64,000 nucleotides of DNA from Squalus acanthias (Eukaryota). How positions within the stretch are numbered: position 1 is the stretch's first letter; each line of letters starts with the position of its first letter. A program made the position numbers and the translations under genes. The stretch covers positions 18,974,001 through 19,038,000 of the forward strand of contig CM059432.1 in assembly GCA_030390025.1 (NCBI GenBank), read 5' to 3'. The notes under the pieces are model-generated. The model was not told where the DNA came from. It was given only the letters and a program-made list of their open reading frames with translations, and did not search any database. Of the stretch, positions 14,508-40,525 are shown piece by piece.

Positions 14508-14965
14508 AAGAAAGACTTGCATTTATATAGCACCTTTCACGACCACCGGACGTCCCAAAGCACTTTACAGTCAATGGAGTACTTTTTGGAGTGCAGTCAC
14601 TGTTGTAATGTAGGAAACGCGGCAGCCAATTTGCGCACAGCAAGATCACACAAACAGCAATGTGATAATAACCAGATAATCTGTTTTTTGATTGAGGGAT
14701 AAATATTGGCCAGGACACCGGGGAGAACTCCCCTGCTCTTCTTCGAAATAGTGCCATGGGATCTTTTACATCCACTTGAGAGAGCCGACGGGGCCTCGGT
14801 TTAACGTCTCATCCGAAAGACAGCACCTCCGACAGTGCAGCACTCCCTCAGTACTGCACTGGAGTGTCAGCCTAGATTTTTGTGCTCAAGTTCTGGAGTG
14901 GGACTTGAACCCACAACCTTCTGACTCAGAGGCGAGGGTGCTACCCACGTAGCCACGGCTGACAC
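14508..14965 (-). mobile_element. Near full-length DeuSINE/SacSINE1-like SINE
   Basis: tRNA head with B box gggttcaagtccc, Deu core, L2-like tail ending tataaatgcaagtctttcttt. Confidence 0.85.
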
Positions 14966-15580: not shown

Positions 15581-15699
15581 TGTACTTAACTAACCCGCCC
15601 CATCTCTCCAATATGACCTGAGATTTGTAGGACCACACAAAACTGGAAAAGACCATGGGCATACAGCATGATGGCGGACACCCGCTCCCTGTATTAACA

Positions 15700-18600
15700 G
15701 GCGTGGAGGCCTGAGGTATATTGAAGAACTAGGCATCTACAGTATCTATGCCATTAGCGGCAATGCAAGCAGTTGTGAGAAAGACTTCCATACAAAACTT
15801 TTGATCAATGACCAATATATTGATATGTGTATCGACACGGCGGTGGACTGCTCTATCATGAGCAAGGACACATATGAGAGTAAGTTTAATCAAGTACCAC
15901 TTACAAAGAGTACCGTAGAGTTAAAAACCTACTCCGGAGAAATCCAAGAAACATGTGGACAAATGGAATGTACAGAACAACAGAATGGCCAGTCAGTAAA
16001 GCTGCCTATTATTGTAGTGAGCTACAACAACAGGCCAACTCTCATGGGCAAAGACTTGTTGAGAAAGTTAAAATGGGACTGGAAAAACATCTTCAGTGTA
16101 AATGCTTCAAAGAAGTGACGCGACACAATGCTGAACAAGTATGAAAGCATGTTCTCAGACAGTTATGAGGGCATCACTGGGTATGACACATATATCCGCA
16201 TCAAGTCCAATGCGAAGCCTGTCTATTATAAGGCAAGGCTGGTCCCCTATGCGTTGAAAAGTCAGGTGGAGGAAGAGCTAGAGAAGCTCAGAGAGAACAT
16301 AGTGCTAGTAAAAACTGACAAAAGTGAATGGGCTACCCCGATCGTGGTAGTGTCCAAAGCAGACAAAACTGTACGCTTGTGCGGTGACTACAAAGTTACT
16401 ATCAACCAAGCAGTTGACGATGAGCAGTACCTGCTACCTACATGGCAAGATTTGTATGCAGCCCTCTCGGGTCAAAGGTTTTCTCCAAGCTTGATCTATC
16501 GCATCCTTACGCTCAGCTGAATATTGAGAAAGAGAGTCAACAGTATCTCACCATCAACATGCACAAGGGACTGTACTCATACACCAAGCTGCCGTATGGT
16601 GTAAAGTCCTCCCCCAAAATCTTCCAGGCTACGATGGATTAGATTTTGCAAGGAGTTCCAAATTGCTTATGCAATCAAGATGATGTGCTGATCGCTACAA
16701 GCAGCGAGGAAGAACATCTAGAAGTGTTAGATTTAGTGCTTCAAAGGTTGAATTCCCACAATGTCAAATTGAAAAGGAGCAAATGTGCTTTTGTGCAGCC
16801 CGAGGTTGTGTATCTTGGTCTGAAAGTTGATGCAAATGGCTTGCAACCAGTGAAGGAAAAGGTTGATGCTGTCATCAATGCTCCAAAGCCACAGAACGTG
16901 TCTGAGTTAAGATCTTTCCTTGGAATGGTCCAGTACTGCACATGTTTCTTACCTGAGTTAGCGACCATGTTCGCTCCATTGCACGAGCTCCTCAAGAAGG
17001 ATGTCCAGTGGAAGTGGATGAAAGCACAACAGGAAGCTTACGACGCTTGTAAGAGAAGTTTCTCTTGCGATGCTCTACTTGTGCACTACGACACAGAGCT
17101 TGAGCTTAAGTTAGCGTGTGATTCTTCAAGCTATGTTTTGGGAGCTGTCATAAACCACGTAATGGATGACGGCCAAGAGAAACCAATCGCGTTCGCATCG
17201 CGAACCCTCACAAAGAGCGAAAGAAACTACGTGCAAATTGAAAAGGACGCACTCGCCATAGTGTTTGGAATCAAGAAAATTCAACAGTTCCTCATCGGCA
17301 GAAAGTTTACCCTGATAACTGATCACAAACCGCTCCTAGTAATATTGGAGCCCAAATCTGCCATCCCTGCAATGGCCGAATCAAGAATGCAACGTTAGGC
17401 AGTGTTGTTGTCACAATATGACTACACGATTGAATATCGTACTTCAAAGCAAAATGCAATCACAGATGCCTTGTCTAGGTTGCCACATGAGGACTCGTGT
17501 GTTGGGAGTGAAGGTGCGATTTTCAAATAGGTGCAGTTGACAAAGACTTTCCCGTGAATGCAACTGAGATTGCAGATGAGACTCAAAAGGACTCATTACT
17601 GAAAAGAGTGTATGAAAACACCTTGAATGGATGGACTGATCAGTGTCTGGACACAGAATTGAAACCATCCCATAACCGTCGTGCTGAATTGTCTTGTGAG
17701 CAAGGTTGTATCAAGTGGGGAAACAGAGTGGTGGTACCTACTTCCTTGAGAGATAGAATTCTGGCCGAACTTCATCCTGAACATCCTGTGATCGTCAGCA
17801 TGAAATCAATTGCAAGAAGCTTTGTTTACTGGCCTGGATTGGACAGTGATCTTGAATCACTTGTTCGCAAATGCAACGTTCGCCAAAATTGCAGAAGCAA
17901 ACCACCCAAAACTCCACTACAACCCTGGTCATGGCCAAGTAGACCTTTTCAGAGAGTACATGTAGACTTCTGTGAGAAAGCAAATGATTATTTCCTGGTA
18001 CTTGTAGATAGTCACTCAAAATGAATTGAAGTGTAACACATGGGTTCAAGTACTATAACTGAACGTACCATAGATGAGTTGAGGTCTATCTTTGCATGTC
18101 ATGGCTTACCCGAAAAGCTTGTTTCTGACAATGGCCCTCAGTTCCATTCTGCTCTATTCCAAGAATTCATGAAATGGAACAATATCAAACACACTCTCGT
18201 TCCACCATATCATCCAGCTTCAAACGGAGCAGCCGAAAGGTCAGTCAGAATAGTGAAAGAAGCTCTCAAAAAGCAAGTGTTTCAGGGTTGTTCAGGACTC
18301 AGCATGAAGCAACATTTGGCAAATGTTTGGCTGAAGTGCAGAGCTACTCCGCACACTACAACTGGATATACCCCAGCAGAACTCTTGATGAAGAGGAGAT
18401 TGAGAACACGATGGAGTCTTGTTCAACCAAATTTGAACAGAAACAGTTGAGTCAGAAACGTTATAATGACACCAATCAGAAAAAACGCAGTTTAAAAAAA
18501 AAACGAGAGTGTTCGTGTTCTCAGTCCCCCTGGAAAGTCAAGGTCACACAAGTGGGATGTAGGAACTATAGTAGAGGTTGGTGGAACTAAGATATTTGGT

Positions 18601-18886: not shown

Positions 18887-18988
18887 TTCATTTAAAATAA
18901 AAAAAGCCAGGAGTTTTTGTTATGTGGTGCATGTAATGCTGGGAAAGGTGGGACCATAGTTTTGTTGTATTTGAGAGGGAAACATGTA

Positions 18989-19881
18989 GGGGTAAAAATT
19001 CAGTTGGTTGCGCCTCCCGTTAGCGCCTTAAGAGGGCGCTAATGGGGCGCAAAGCCGCTAACGCCCGGGTGCAGCGATGTTTGCGCCGCTCGGGAACTTA
19101 ACTTGACATTGTGCGGCGGCGCTAAACTTTACCGCTGCGACCACCTGCGCGCGCAGATTGTGACGTCATTCCATGGTGCAACGCCCTTGTGGCGCCCCGG
19201 AGCGGAAATTGAGTGGCGCCCCCTGCCTTACCGCCTGGCGCATCCAACGACCAGCAGACTGGAACGCTATCAATCGCTGTGGGGCTGGGGGGGGCGCTAT
19301 TTAAAGGGGGCCTCTTCCTGCCTTTTATTGTTGGTGGCATTTTTGAACTACGCATTCTGAGAGAGAGAGGGAGAGACTTCTGGAGAGATTCAACGTTGTG
19401 TGAAGGAGTTTTGGGTACTGAGCAGCACTTTGCAGGTTCATTTTGATTTGCCATTCCTTGTATCGATTTAGCAGAGACTGTGGGAGCTGCACTCTGCGCT
19501 CTTTTCCTGGTACTCTCCATTGTTCTTTCCAGCACATTTGATGTGCAAGTCTCTCCAGGCCGAGATTCAAGGCTGCAATGAACAGGATGTGGATGGAAAG
19601 CAAGATTAACCATCCCCTTTAAGAACTGGCCCGTGCCATTGTGTGTGTGTTCCATTGCTGACTGACATTACATGAGCTTCACCAGCGCTCTGAGTTAGCG
19701 CCTCACTCCTTGGCCTTTGCGCCTTAAGACAGGTGTGCAGCGCCTGATTTAGAGCTCCACTCACCTCCCGGGGCGGTAAAAGTGAAGTTTCCAGTCAGTG
19801 CCGATAATTAGCGCCAGGCGCTAATATTTGCGTCCAGACGATATTTGCGCCCCAAATGGGGCGCGACCTAATTTTTACCCC
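18989..19881. mobile_element. Non-autonomous PIF/Harbinger-like element (893 bp)
   Basis: TIRs GGGGTAAAAATT...AATTTTTACCCC, 3-bp TSD GTA; colinear with 37940-38841. Confidence 0.85.
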
Positions 19882-19893
19882 GTACTTTTTTTT

Positions 19894-28920: not shown

Positions 28921-29601
28921 AGGACTATAATGGACTTCATCCTAGGGTCTTAAAAGAAGTGGCTAGTGAGATAGTTGATGCGTTGGTTTTAATTTTCTAA
29001 AATTCCCTAGATTCGGGGAAGGTTCCATTAGATTGGAAAATAATGAATGTAACTCCTTTATTCAAAAAGGGAGGGAAACAGAAAGCAGGAAACTACAAGC
29101 CAGTTAGCTTAACATCTGTCATAGGGAAGATGTTAGAAGCTATTATTAAAGGCGTTATAGCAGGGCACTTAGAAAAGTTTAAAGTAATCAGGCAGAGTCA
29201 ATATGGTTTTGTGCAAGGGAAATCATGTTTAACCAATTTATTGGAGTTCTTTGAGGAAGTAAAATGTGCTGTGGATAAAGGGGAACCAGTGGATGTACCG
29301 TACTTAGATTTCCAGAAGGCATTTGATAAGGTGCCACATCAAAGGTTATTGTGGAAAATAAAAGCCCATGGTGTAGGGGGCAACATATTGGCATGGATAG
29401 AAGATTGGCTAGCTAACAGGAAACAGAGAGTAGGCATAAATGGGTAATATTCTGATTGGCAAGATGTAACGAGTGGTGTGCCACAGGGATCAGTGCTGGG
29501 GCCTCAACTTTTTACAATTTATATAAATGACTTAGATGAAGGGACCGAAGGTATGGTTGCTAAATTTGCTGATGACACAAAGATAGGTAGGAGAGTAAAT
29601 T

Positions 29602-31602
29602 GTGAAGAGGGCAAGGAGTCTACAAAGGGATATAGATAGGTTAAGTGAGTGGGCAAAGATCTGGCAAATGGAGTATAATGTGGGAAAATGTGAAGTTGTC
29701 CATTTTGGCAGGAAGAATAAAAAAGAAGCATATTATCTAAATGGTGAGAGATTGCAGAGCTCTGAGATGCAGAGGGATCTGGGTGTCCTAGTGCATGAAT
29801 CGCAAAAGGTTACTGTTACTATGCAGGTACAGCAAGTAATTAGGAAAGTTAATAGAATGTTATCATTTATTGCGAGGGGAATTGAATACAAAAGTAGGGA
29901 GGTTATGCTTCAGTTATACACAGATCCGACCAAAGAACACACCCGCCAACTCAATAGACTGATCAAGACCTTCGATCCAGACCTTCAAAACATCCTACGC
30001 ACTCTCATCCCATGTACTCCCCGCGTAGGAGACTTTTACTGCCTCCCAAAGATACACAAAGCCAACACACCCGGACGTCCTATCGTATCAGGCAACGGAA
30101 CCTTGTGTGAGAACCTCTCTGGGTACGTCGAGGGCATCCTGAAACCCATCATACAGGGATCCCCCAGCTTCTGTCGCGACACCACAGACTTCTTGCAGAA
30201 ACTCAGCACCCATGGACCAGTTGAACCAGGAACACTCCTCGCCACGATGGACGTATCGGCACTCTACACCAATATCCCCCACAATGACGGGATCGCTGCG
30301 ACAGCCTCAGTACTCAACACCAACAACAGCCAATCTCCAGACGCCATCCTACAACTCATCCGCTTCATCCTTGACCACAATGTCTTCACCTTCGACAACC
30401 AGTTTTTTACCCAAACACACAGAACAGCCATAGGGACCAAATTCGCACCCCAATACGCCAACATCTTCATGCACAAGTTCGAGCAAGACTTCTTCGCTGC
30501 ACAGGACCTCCAACCAACGCTGTACACCAGATACATCGATGACATCTTCTTCCTTTGGACCCACGGCGAAGGATCACTGAAAGGATTACATGATAACATC
30601 AATAGGTTCCATCCCACCATCAAACTCACCATGGACTACTCCTCAGAATCGGTTTCATTCTTGGACACACGAATCTCCATCAAAGACGGACACCTCAGCA
30701 CTTCACTCTACCGCAAGCCCACGGACAACCTCACGATGCTCCACTTCTCCAGCTTCCACCCTAACCACGTTAAAGAAGCCATCCCCTATGGACAAGGCTT
30801 GCGAATACACAGGATCTGCTCAGACGAGGAGGAACGCGATGGACACCTACGGACACTGAAAGACGCCCTCGTAAGAACGGGATATGACGCTCGACTCGTC
30901 AATCGACAGTTCCGACGGGCCACAGCGAAAAACCGCATAGACCTCCTCAGAAGGCGAACACGGGACACAACCAACAGAGTACCCTACGTCGTCCAGTACT
31001 TCCCCGGAGCGGCGAAACTACGCCATGTTCTTCGCAGCCTTCAACATGTCATCGATGACGACGAACACCTTGCTAAGGCCATCCCCACGCCTCCACTACT
31101 CGCCTTCAAGCAGCCGCCTAACCTCAAAAGTACCATCGTTGGCAGCAAATTACCCAGCTGTCAGGAGAACAGCGACCACGACACCACACAACCCTGCCAT
31201 GGCAACCTCTGCAAGACATGCCAGATCATGAACACAGATACCGTCATCACACGTGAGGACACTACCCACCAGGTACATGGTACATACTCATGTGACTCGG
31301 CCAACGTTGTCTACCTGATACGTTGCAGGAAAGGATGCCCCAGAGCATGGTACATCGGCGAGACCATGCAGACACTGAGACAACGTATGAACGGACACCG
31401 CACAACAATCGCCAGGCAGGATAGTTACCTCCCAGTCGGGGAACACTTCAGCAGTCAAGGACATTCAGCCTCGGATCTGCGGGTTAGCGTTCTCCAAGGC
31501 GGCCTTCGAGACACACGACAACGCAAAATCATCGAGCAGAAACTGATAGCCAAGTTCCGCACCCATGAGGACGGCTTCAATAGGGATAGCTACAGAACGT
31601 AA
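29602..31602 (+). CDS. 666-aa chimeric ORF: CR1 RT C-terminal part fused in frame to Penelope RT/GIY-YIG; expression not shown
   Basis: Junction ...[14 protein letters not shown]... coincides with the TSD. Confidence 0.5.
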
Positions 31603-37305: not shown

Positions 37306-37487
37306 GAAATGCTGAATGGTCTCTTTATAAAAGAAAGACTTGCATTCATATGAAGGGATTTTTACTAGTCCTAGCCCCTTTAGGGCTACCCCAGATCAGG
37401 CGTATTTCTCAGACGTTCACTTTCAACTAAAGTTTGAGGTAGCCGGATCCTAAAGACGCTTAATTGGGTCTAAAGGTCCGGGCTATC

Positions 37488-37785
37488 CTCTTTTACAATA
37501 GTCACTATCTGTACAGATTAATGTGGGTTTCATAGGGTCTGCCTTTTCTAAAGCATATCGTAATGCTGCGGCTTCAGCATATTGCGCTGTCTTATGGTCA
37601 AGGTGTATTGGCAGTAATTCTTCTGGATAAAAAGAATAGGAATCTCGAAAAGTCCCGACTACTATCACCATCCCAGCTGAGGATTGTTGGGATGTCCCTT
37701 TTTTAATCATGATTGTCGATCCAACACAGTAAATGACTCGATGGTAGCAACTGTTTGTATTTCCTAATAAAAAAGACTTGGCCAA
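37488..37785 (-). pseudogene. Retroviral RNase H fragment
   Basis: VIYCVGS...HKTAQYAEAAALRYALEKA...LICTDSDY. Confidence 0.8.
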
Positions 37786-37939
37786 TTCCGACAGGGTTTG
37801 TCATTTCGTCAGGACCTAACCCCGATTAGGATTTAATATGAACATTATAAGAAATTTCTAGACCTCAATGGTATATTGAGGGAGTTCTGATTTAAGTTCT
37901 ACAAGGCCTGATCAGGAACTTGTCGTCTATAGAGACTTA

Positions 37940-38841
37940 GGGGGAAAAATTCAGTTGGTTGCGCCTCCCGTTAGCGCCTTAAGAGGGCGCTAATGGGGCG
38001 CAAAGCAACTAGCGCCCGGGCGCGGCGATGTGTGCGCCGCTCGCGAAATTAACTAGACTTTTGCGGTGGCACTAAACACTACCGCCACCATCTCCTGCGC
38101 CGTCAGATCGTGACATCAGTCGAGTGCGCAACGCCCCGGTAACGCCCCGGTAACGCCCCGGAGCGGATATTGAGTGGCGCCCCCTGCCTTACCGCCTGCC
38201 GCTAGCAATGACAGGTTGAGGGGAGCGTTTTGCAGTCGGGAAGGGACTGGGGGAGCGCTATTTAAAGGTGACCGCTTCCTGCCTTTTTTTGTTGATGACA
38301 TTTTTGAACCACGCATTCTGAGAGAGAGAGAGAGACTTCTGGAGAGATTCAACGCTGTGTGAAGGAGTTTTGGTTATTGAGCAGCACTTTGCAGGTTCAT
38401 TTTGATTTGCCCTTCCTTGTATCGATTTAGAAGAGACTGTGGGGGTTGCACTCTGAGCCCTTTCCCTGGTTATCTCCATTGTTCTTTCCAGCAGATTTGA
38501 TGTACAGGTCTCTCCAGGCCGAGATTCAAGGCTGCAATGAACAGGATGTGGATGGAAAGCAAGATTAACCATCCCCTTTAAGAACTGGCCGGTGCCAGTG
38601 TGTCTGTGTTCCATTGCTGACTGACATCACCTGAGCTTCGCCAGCGTTCTGAGTTAGCGCGTCGCTCCTCGGCCTTTGCACCTTAAGACAGATGTGTAGC
38701 GCCTGATTTAGCGCTCCAATCACCTCCAGGGGCGATAAAAGTCAAGTTTGCAGTCGGAGGCGATAATTAGCGGCAGGCGCTAATCTTTGCGCCAGGCTGA
38801 TAATTGCGCCCCAAACTGGGGCGATACTGAATTTTTCCCCC
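37940..38841. mobile_element. Non-autonomous PIF/Harbinger-like element (902 bp), second copy
   Basis: TIRs GGGGGAAAAATTCAG...CTGAATTTTTCCCCC, TSD TTA. Confidence 0.88.
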
Positions 38842-38953
38842 TTAAATCTTGGTCTTAGCACCACTGTCAGTAAAACACTCCTTCTATACTTAACAATCTA
38901 TGAGATGGATATAGATCTAAATATAAATATAGGGTTCTGTATCAACTCGTTAA

Positions 38954-38971
38954 CACACACGTTGGTCGCCA
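38954..38971 (-). promoter_or_regulatory. Primer-binding site, tRNA-Lys1,2-like
   Basis: TGGCGACCAACGTGTGTG, 2 nt downstream of the LTR CA; 14/18 match to TGGCGCCCAACGTGGGGC. Confidence 0.75.
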
Positions 38972-40086
38972 ACTGAAGGGATTTTTACTAGTCCTAGCCC
39001 CTTTAGGGCTACCCCGGATCAGGCGTATTTCTCAGACGTTCACTTTCAACTAAAGTTTGAGGTAGCCGAATCCTAAAGACACTTAATTGGGTCTAAAGGT
39101 CCAGGCTATCTCTCCCTAAAGGAAAGGAACAACCCGAGAATGTTACCGTCCTCCAGAGAGCACTTTTAATAAGTTTAGCTAGACTATAACGTCCCGGATA
39201 TTATGAGGGTCCGGAAAACTCCCTCAGAATTCTGCAACTCCTCACCAAAGAATGTACAGAGATTGAGTTTGCGAGTTTTTGATACAGAAGTCTTATGTGA
39301 GAGAATTCTAAAAATATATAGATTTATTGAAGAACCGACATGCAATTTACAATTGGTGAATCAGTCAATCGCAACATTAACCATTCTAAAAAGAGAAAAA
39401 ATGCTATCTTATTATTAACAGGGAATCTTACTTTTAAATCTTAACTTCGCTACAGTATTACAGTTCTTAAAGGTTCTCTATACAGGATATCCATCAATAT
39501 CAAATACCTTTGATCCCTGAGGTACAAAGAGTTGGAGACTACAGAGCTGCCTCTGAAGCCGAGAATCGCTTTGCCCGATTAAAGCGAGTCTGTTATCCCA
39601 TTTGAGAGTTCAATATTTATACCCTTTTCCAGTGGTATTTCCTTTAAGGATTTCTGCTGATGCAAGCTAATTATCTCTAGTCATTTTACTGCCGACCTCT
39701 GCAACTGCCACCTCAGCCAGAATCTTGTCTCATCTCTAGGTGTTCTAAGTTTACCATATAAATACAGTGTGATGGCAGGTGTTACGAGGGCAGATGTTCC
39801 TTATCTTACATGCTATCTTTACGAAGTTTAAATTAGAGCACCTTTTACAGGGTGAACCATTGTTTTTTTTTCCCAAAAGGTCAGCCTGTCAGAGCCCTTC
39901 ACCTTCTGTTTCAATAAGGTTATTTATTCAGGGTCAACAAGTGTCTTATCTCAATAGCCAGAATGCTTTCATAGCTATTTCATAGGTTTCTAAATTTCCA
40001 AACCTAGTTTGTCATGTTTTAATAAGGCCAGAATTCTTTCATAAGATAGTGTATTTTTCTAAATAGTTATATGGCTTATTCCTTCA

Positions 40087-40525
40087 CATATACAGCGCCT
40101 TTCTTGACCACCAGATGTCCCAAAGTGCTTTACAACCAATGAAGTACTTTTTGAAGCGCAGTCACTGTTTTAATGTAGGAACAGCAGCAGCAAATTTGCA
40201 CACAGCTAGCTCCCATAAACAGCAATGTGATAATGACCAGATAATCTGTTTTAGTGATGTTGATTGAGGGGTAAATATTGGCCAGGACACCAGGGAGAAC
40301 TCCCCTGCTCTTCTTCGAAATAGTGCGATGGGATCTTTTACGTCCACCTGAGAGAGCAGACGGAGCCTTGGTTTAACGTCTCATCCGAAAGACGGCACCT
40401 CCGACAGTGCAGCACTCCCTCAGCACTGCACTGAGTTCCAGCCTAGATTTTTGTGCTCAAGACTCTTGAACCCACAACCTTCTGACTCACAGGCGATGGT
40501 GCTACCAACTGAGCCACAGCTGATA
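40087..40525 (-). mobile_element. DeuSINE-like SINE whose tail (continuing at 37330-37350) was the ERV target
   Basis: Matches 14508-14965; aaagacttgcattcata|...|catatacagcgcc rejoins across the ERV. Confidence 0.85.

What the first reader, a model, noticed from the sequence alone, without database searches (positions are those of the whole stretch)
37351..40086. Foamy/spuma-like endogenous retrovirus remnant in an elasmobranch-type genome
Seen (minus strand): a 1113-bp LTR bounded by TGAAGG...CCTTCA with a TATA (GGTATAAAT, ~39615-39622) and ATTAAA (~39164-39169). A GT spacer is followed by the PBS TGGCGACCAACGTG, then a leader, an RNase H piece (HKTAQYAEAAAL...LICTDSDY) and the last 137 bp of the 3' LTR. 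A 4-bp TSD CATA flanks it inside a SINE tail. Known: foamy viruses have long LTRs, prime on tRNA-Lys1,2 (TGGCGCCCAACGTGGGGC) and make 4-bp TSDs; from memory, their RNase H reads roughly HTAQMAEIAA...LVITDS. Inference: this is a spuma-related or other basal (e.g. loki-like) retroviral lineage, which is sparsely sampled in cartilaginous fish and may be an undescribed family.
Basis: partly seen in the sequence, partly recalled or inferred. Interest (0 to 1): 0.75.

Follow-up and report, generated by a model that had tools for sequence, protein, structure and literature searches.

The report
Gutted foamy-like retrovirus fossil, shark-type genome
This is a dead, twice-deleted copy of a retrovirus whose surviving enzyme fragment most resembles foamy viruses, likely from a shark genome; it belongs to an abundant repeat family, and foamy-like fossils in cartilaginous fish are already known, so it is fairly ordinary.

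Summary
Most of the 'leader' is a later 902-bp MITE insertion. The RNase H piece hits only foamy Pol in the PDB (5 of 5 hits). Its one real hit among 1.84 billion representatives is a salamander foamy-like Pol. Gypsy, gamma and epsilon RNase H score far lower. Contigs from five organism codes show an abundant family. They also place three junctions that no listed contig bridges: leader/probable gag start to RNase H (about 37746), mid-RNase H to LTR tail (37487, 4-bp microhomology), and the MITE. Other copies run on past all three. RT, env and accessory genes are gone, so formal membership cannot be tested, and loki and snakehead-like relatives were not compared. Foamy-like ERVs are published for elephant shark and catshark. 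This scan already noted several foamy-like families in the same genome. Verdict: a new, inert member of a known kind; low interest.

The parts
40087..40090 (-). Left target-site duplication (TATG on minus)
38974..40086 (-). Complete 5' LTR, 1113 bp, TG...CA, 6-bp terminal inverted repeat
   Evidence: held by many public runs
39614..39621 (-). TATA box candidate (TATAAATA); function not tested
39323..39328 (-).
39165..39170 (-). ATTAAA, alternative poly(A) signal candidate
38955..38971 (-). Primer-binding site, tRNA-Lys1,2-like, after a 2-nt spacer
   Evidence: 14 of 17 matches to the PBS printed in PMC3386198
38845..38954 (-). True leader, first part
   Evidence: joined to about 37935 in MITE-free contigs of 4 of 4 runs
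37940..38841 (.). Later 902-bp MITE with terminal inverted repeats, flanked by a TTA duplication (37937-37939 and 38842-38844); PIF/Harbinger-like label is recalled
   Evidence: second copy 18987-19884 at 86%; joint skipping 905 bases
37747..37936 (-). Leader, second part, and probable first codons of gag (ATG at 37804-37802, about 260 nt after the PBS without the MITE); gag identity is inferred from position only
37486..37746 (-). N-terminal 87 codons of a foamy-type RNase H; valine stands where foamy Pol has the first catalytic aspartate; cut off after the DSDY motif
37351..37487 (-). Last 137 bp of the 3' LTR; its first 4 bases also fit the RNase H side (microhomology)
37347..37350 (-). Right target-site duplication, followed by the rest of the SINE tail
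40087..40300 (-). 3' part of the host SINE into whose tail the provirus inserted
   Evidence: 84% to a copy at 14524-14728

Best explanation
This is one integration of a likely foamy-like endogenous retrovirus that later lost most of its genes in two inferred deletions and took up a MITE, leaving an inert remnant of an abundant family. Shown: the LTR, primer site, 4-bp duplication in a SINE tail, foamy-type RNase H piece, LTR tail and MITE. Inferred steps: (1) the parent primed reverse transcription on tRNA-Lys1,2 and integrated with a 4-bp stagger, as foamy viruses do. (2) One deletion joined the leader and probable gag start to the start of RNase H at about 37746; it may predate or follow integration. 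(3) A second deletion joined mid-RNase H to the end of the 3' LTR across a 4-bp microhomology. It most likely happened in DNA after reverse transcription, because a genome lacking the 3' polypurine tract, U3 and R could not have produced the complete 5' LTR seen here. (4) The MITE inserted independently. The copy encodes no working enzyme and would not be able to replicate. The only activity it could retain is untested promoter or poly(A) activity of the 5' LTR.
For: PDB sequence search: 5 of 5 hits up to E 10 are foamy Pol or RNase H. Fold search, viral library: the four named targets among the six at E<1e-3 are foamy Pol, 35-42% identity across the six. HERV-W (28%, E 3e-3), walleye dermal sarcoma virus (26%) and MLV (24%) rank lower. 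Fold search, PDB: 5 of 5 at E<1e-3 are foamy. Of 3 hits among 1.84 billion representatives, two are bacterial repeat proteins. The third is an RNase H fragment of 40% identity whose 76 relatives are all salamander proteins. One of these full Pols scores E 5e-103 to foamy Pol, 1e-29 to MLV and 7e-24 to Ty3. Homology begins at 37746, where listed contigs also stop from both sides (X1 record 6 and X16 record 22). Depth dips at all three junctions in 3 of 3 runs with cover. Loose ends at 37484 in X1 (10 contigs), X13 (3) and X16 (1) show other copies running on. A 4-nt duplication and a Lys PBS are the norm in fish foamy-like ERVs (PMC5210030, section 3.4 read).
Against: Placement rests on 87 residues of RNase H. 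Retroviruses replaced this domain several times and its trees are unreliable (PMC9040795 and PMC8922424, passages). No tree was built, because only salamander reference sequences could be fetched. The structure model used a salamander foamy-like alignment, so the fold ranking leans that way. The PBS has 3 mismatches in 17. A 4-bp duplication is shared with gammaretroviruses (PMC5210030). The read laying tables are cut (127 loose ends and 5770 pieces not shown), so rare bridging contigs could be hidden. About a tenth of the depth remains at junction 1 in X1. The window's own genome is not held.
Confidence: 0.85

Rival explanations
1. The first junction is not private: it marks an amplified non-autonomous subfamily that kept the 5' packaging region and the 3' pol region (like foamy CAS-I and CAS-II) and was mobilised by helper copies. 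Only the second deletion and the MITE are private to this locus. This is compatible with the foamy placement.
For: What is kept upstream of the second deletion (R-U5, PBS, leader, gag start, then pol from RNase H onward) resembles CAS-I and the C-terminal pol CAS-II described in PMC5035957 (passages). Some depth remains at 37731-37750. An earlier scan note describes such a pattern in this genome (e1-7805515, unchecked).
Against: No listed contig bridges 37746, and depth there falls roughly tenfold in X1 (2,637 against 10,000-73,000 in nearby bins), like the dips at the two other junctions. Look-ups by sequence found no link to that note. Whether CAS-II starts at RNase H was not shown in the passages read.
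Confidence: 0.2
2. The element belongs to another basal lineage (lokiretrovirus, snakehead/ERV-L clade) that carries a foamy-like RNase H by domain exchange or convergence.
For: RNase H was acquired several times in retroviruses (PMC9040795, passages). Earlier scan notes report snakehead-like families with 4-bp duplications in this genome (unchecked).
Against: PBS, duplication length and RNase H all point to foamy together. The review lists lokiretroviruses from lampreys, bony fishes, amphibians and reptiles, not cartilaginous fish (PMC8922424, passages).
Confidence: 0.1
3. It is a Ty3/Gypsy retrotransposon or a gamma/epsilon ERV remnant.
For: LTR with TG...CA ends and a 4-bp duplication fit these too.
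Against: The piece matches PF00075, not the Gypsy-type RT_RNaseH families. It shows no similarity to the window's own Gypsy RNase H (E 4.2). MLV, XMRV and Ty3 are absent from the PDB sequence hits up to E 10.
Confidence: 0.03
4. The structure is a chance assembly: a solo LTR plus unrelated fragments, or a misassembly.
For: The family is very repetitive, and no run laid here holds this exact locus (best word share 0.52).
Against: Identical 4-bp flanks restore a SINE tail. The two LTR copies differ at 4 of 137 bases, so they are not an assembly duplicate. Leader and LTR are collinear in other copies.
Confidence: 0.02

Closest known systems
Salamander foamy-like ERVs (Pleurodeles waltl and Lissotriton helveticus Pol proteins; PwaFLERV and NviFLERV are named in PMC5512871)
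   Same: Best real sequence relatives of the RNase H piece, 40-44% identity over 84-89 residues for the top four. NviFLERV-1 has LTRs of 960-974 nt and a 4-nt duplication (supplement passages).
   Different: Different host class. NviFLERV is annotated with a tRNA-Asn PBS. That these proteins are PwaFLERV itself was not checked.
Exogenous foamy viruses (Spumaretrovirinae: prototype, simian, equine; PDB 2LSN, 7KSE, 7KSF, 7O24)
   Same: RNase H 35-42% identical; Lys1,2-like PBS; 4-bp duplication; long LTR.
   Different: RT, integrase, env, accessory genes and the polypurine tract are absent here. No convincing splice donor in R. Endogenous and present in many copies.
Cartilaginous-fish foamy-like ERVs: CmiFLERV (elephant shark, PMC5512871), ERV-Spuma.0-Sca (catshark, PMC10699275), and the element of Wang, Chen and Cui 2023 (PMC9972966, reference line only)
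   Same: Same kind of element in the same likely host group. The catshark study reports 293 retroviral elements.
   Different: ERV-Spuma.0-Sca is annotated with 866-869-bp LTRs and gag 670 nt after the LTR, against 1113 bp and about 260 nt here. Short motifs of this copy were not found in its supplements (stored cells may be cut). It is probably another family. Identity with CmiFLERV or the 2023 element could not be tested.
PIF/Harbinger-type MITE (label recalled)
   Same: Terminal inverted repeats starting GGG, 3-bp TTA duplication, no coding frame, very high depth.
   Different: No autonomous partner was sought; it is a passenger, not part of the virus.

Membership tests
Foamy-like ERVs (FLERV) / Spumaretrovirinae | RT clusters with foamy viruses (definition used in PMC5512871) | not testable with these tools
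   RT is deleted in this copy and the own genome is not held
Foamy-like ERVs (FLERV) / Spumaretrovirinae | Pol RNase H closest to foamy Pol | tested here: met
   no tree built
Foamy-like ERVs (FLERV) / Spumaretrovirinae | tRNA-Lys1,2-type PBS next to the 5' LTR | tested here: met
   14 of 17 matches, best site in the window; not exclusive to the family
Foamy-like ERVs (FLERV) / Spumaretrovirinae | 4-nt target-site duplication | tested here: met
   shared with gammaretroviruses (PMC5210030)
Foamy-like ERVs (FLERV) / Spumaretrovirinae | GGGTG motif at the polypurine tract / 3' LTR border | not testable with these tools
   that region is deleted
Foamy-like ERVs (FLERV) / Spumaretrovirinae | Gag without Cys-His boxes, foamy-type env, internal promoter, accessory genes | not testable with these tools
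   deleted in this copy
Foamy-like ERVs (FLERV) / Spumaretrovirinae | Major splice donor in R upstream of the poly(A) signal (PMC3694450) | tested here: inconclusive
   best donor-like site has 7 of 11 matches; 914 of 1000 shuffles reach that
Ty3/Gypsy retrotransposons | Gypsy-type RNase H (RT_RNaseH families) | tested here: not met
Gamma/epsilon (class I) ERVs | RNase H closest to MLV, XMRV or WDSV | tested here: not met
   24-28% identity and much weaker E-values than foamy; absent
Lokiretroviruses | RT sister to canonical retroviruses, loki-type RNase H, Mononegavirales-like env | not testable with these tools
   no loki sequence was available; RT and env are deleted here
Snakehead retrovirus / ERV-L (clade Huo) | Pol groups with SnRV or ERV-L | not tested
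   none named among the top 50; their presence in that library is unknown

The most novel reading that the evidence does not exclude
An unnamed foamy lineage amplified to roughly a thousand internal copies and far more LTRs across several related shark species, partly through a natural 'foamy vector': a non-autonomous form that kept only the 5' packaging region and the 3' pol region and was carried by helper copies. That would show the two-part foamy packaging signal is as old as jawed vertebrates.
Probability: 0.15. Interest if true: 0.55.

Novelty: new member of a known kind. Interest (0 to 1): 0.2.

Why it matters
Foamy fossils are described as rare in amniotes and commoner in fish and amphibians (PMC8922424 and PMC10581153, passages). 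A high-copy family shared by several related species would be good material for dating and for host-virus co-divergence tests in cartilaginous fish. That value lies in the longer copies elsewhere in the genome. This remnant adds a marker LTR and a clear example of how such copies decay. If the first junction proved to be shared by many copies, it would bear on how old the foamy packaging signals are.

Tried and rejected
Own-genome search: no genome held. Word-based protein search with the RNase H piece: 0 of 19 candidates significant, weak evidence. P0002 and P0003 rejected as bacterial repeat proteins. Viral contig scan with salamander Pol: 1 pattern match, 0 confirmed. RT-region search for tree references returned 14 proteins, all salamander, so no tree was built. 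ESM Atlas gave unnamed and generic RNase H clusters only. My first idea, that leader joined to RNase H is the family's usual layout, lost support and is kept only as a rival. Splice-donor scan was at chance level. ARAGORN found 0 tRNAs in the window. Expression: no RNA holder listed; X16 is only guessed to be RNA, so its cover is not used as evidence. X22 gave 0 laid reads, which is no test. Joints that skip the whole element come from a very high-copy SINE and do not show an empty orthologous site. Summed contig depth is not a copy number by the tool's own warning and is used only as an order of magnitude. Look-ups of earlier findings by sequence and relatives returned nothing. PMC8227577, PMC6001957, PMC4422223, bioRxiv 2020.12.18.423569 and 2021.11.23.469661 gave no description of this family in the passages read; bioRxiv supplements are closed and could bear on it. 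PMC9972966 is not held. Paper searches for a non-autonomous foamy-like family and for cartilaginous-fish foamy elements listed no description of it, but the library lacks most subscription papers.

Full report
Observation. The LTR runs 40086-38974 (1113 bp) with a 6-bp terminal inverted repeat. A 2-nt spacer precedes the primer site at 38971. A second copy of the last 137 bp of the LTR lies at 37487-37351 and differs at 4 of 137 bases. The same four bases flank both ends, and the two flanks map end to end onto another SINE tail in the window, so this is one integration into a SINE tail. The primer site matches the human foamy virus PBS printed in PMC3386198 (passage) at 14 of 17 bases, the best match on either strand of the window.

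About 900 bp of the supposed leader is a MITE at 37940-38841, with terminal inverted repeats and a TTA duplication. A second copy lies at 18987-19884 (86%), and contigs that skip exactly these 905 bases occur in 4 of 4 runs laid. Without it the internal part is about 580 bp (my arithmetic from these coordinates). The PIF/Harbinger label is recalled, not tested. A canonical AATAAA at 39328 competes with the ATTAAA at 39170; which one was used is untested.

The RNase H piece. Pfam gives PF00075 at E 1e-3, below the curated cut-off. In the PDB, 5 of 5 sequence hits up to E 10 are foamy Pol or RNase H. Among 1.84 billion representatives there were 3 hits. Two are bacterial repeat proteins. The third is an RNase H fragment at 40% identity whose 76 relatives are all salamander proteins. 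A full-length one has the retroviral tether plus RNase H layout and scores E 5e-103 to foamy Pol, 1e-29 to MLV and 7e-24 to Ty3. A profile of 52 of 79 fetched salamander proteins hits the window only here (42.8 bits; under 1 bit elsewhere) and starts at 37746. A model of the piece (mean pLDDT 75) ranks foamy Pol first in both libraries, ahead of HERV-W, HIV/SIV, walleye dermal sarcoma virus and MLV; the model was built on a salamander alignment, so this leans toward foamy. The window's own Gypsy RNase H shows no similarity. In this copy valine stands where foamy Pol has the first catalytic aspartate, and the domain stops after the DSDY motif.

The family. The genome is not held, so I used public runs. 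Of 24 listed runs, 20 hold part of the LTR and leader, 4 of them half the words or more; the best share is 0.52. I laid 7 runs; 6 gave cover, from five organism codes and five studies. At an RNase H position the summed contig depth is about 26,000 in X1, 5,200 in X5 and 11,800 in X10, against 14, 5 and 11 at a flank position covered by about one contig. The tool warns that this is no copy number, and overlapping contigs inflate it, so I read it only as hundreds to low thousands of copies. The LTR tail is deeper again by well over tenfold, though one U3 segment is no deeper than the internal part. This suggests many solo or related LTRs. The window's copy differs from nearly all laid contigs at about 16 places and by one length difference near 37770 over about 450 internal bases (my count). 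So none of these runs appears to hold this locus.

Three junctions. Depth falls at 37491-37510, 37731-37750 and 37931-37950 in 3 of 3 runs with cover. At 37746, listed contigs stop from both sides and run on with other letters, at the place where Pol homology begins. At 37484-37487, RNase H contigs run on without entering the LTR, and four bases fit both sides. No listed piece bridges any of the three, but the tables are cut (127 loose ends and 5770 pieces not shown), and about a tenth of the depth remains at the first junction in X1. An ATG at 37804, about 260 nt after the PBS without the MITE, is a probable gag start by position only.

Mechanism. Inferred from established foamy biology (PMC5210030 section 3.4; PMC5035957 and PMC3694450, passages): the parent primed on tRNA-Lys1,2 and integrated with a 4-bp stagger. 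The deletion from RNase H to the LTR tail removed the 3' polypurine tract, U3 and R. A genome lacking these could not have produced the complete 5' LTR, so this deletion most likely occurred in DNA afterwards, by repair across microhomology. The other deletion may be older. The copy is inert. The LTR difference of 2.9% (95% interval 0.8-7.3%) gives 29 Myr (8-73) at the rate assumed in PMC10699275, or about 66 Myr at the rate assumed in PMC4422223 (my arithmetic); this is a weak date.

Rivals. A non-autonomous subfamily keeping CAS-I-like and CAS-II-like parts is not excluded (0.2), since the own genome could not be searched, but the related runs do not show the junction as common. An earlier scan note (e1-7805515) prompted the CAS comparison and is unchecked. 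A loki or snakehead-like element with a foamy-type RNase H gets 0.1, because retroviruses replaced this domain repeatedly (PMC9040795 and PMC8922424, passages) and I had no such references. Gypsy, gamma or epsilon get 0.03.

Known context. Foamy-like ERVs are published from elephant shark (PMC5512871: passages, section 6, supplement hits) and catshark (PMC10699275: parts 1-2 of 4, supplement tables). The catshark element is annotated with 866-869-bp LTRs and a longer leader, so it is probably another family. Wang, Chen and Cui 2023 is devoted to a cartilaginous-fish endogenous foamy virus; I saw only its reference line and cannot say whether it covers this family. Searches listed no description of this family, in a library that lacks most subscription papers. 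Earlier notes of this scan report several foamy-like families in the same genome, one with a 1.1-kb solo LTR; sequence look-ups did not link them to this copy. The shark host is inferred from the repeat landscape as I recall it and from those notes; no call names it.

Verdict. It works like, and very probably is, a foamy-like ERV remnant; the defining RT test could not be run. It is a new member of a known kind. Interest 0.2.

Noticed in passing
window 15672-18590 (+): Decayed Ty3/Gypsy-like pol in several frames; used only as a control for the RNase H type.
   Followed up: partly
window 29599-31602 (+): A 667-residue open frame in which a CR1-like piece runs into a different RT with a GIY-YIG-like end (Penelope-like by recall; not scanned).
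   Followed up: no
window 18987-19884: Second copy of the MITE, 86% identical, with less regular ends.
   Followed up: partly
window 39752-39875: This U3 segment has about the depth of the internal region, while R-U5 is up to about 20 times deeper, which hints at several LTR subfamilies sharing R-U5.
   Followed up: no
P0005-P0082: Dozens of salamander proteins that databases label 'Gypsy retrotransposon integrase-like' or hypothetical belong to a family whose tested member is a foamy-like Pol.
   Followed up: partly
window 37845 (-): A second ATG upstream of the probable gag start, in the leader; short upstream frames occur in foamy leaders (PMC5035957 legend).
   Followed up: no
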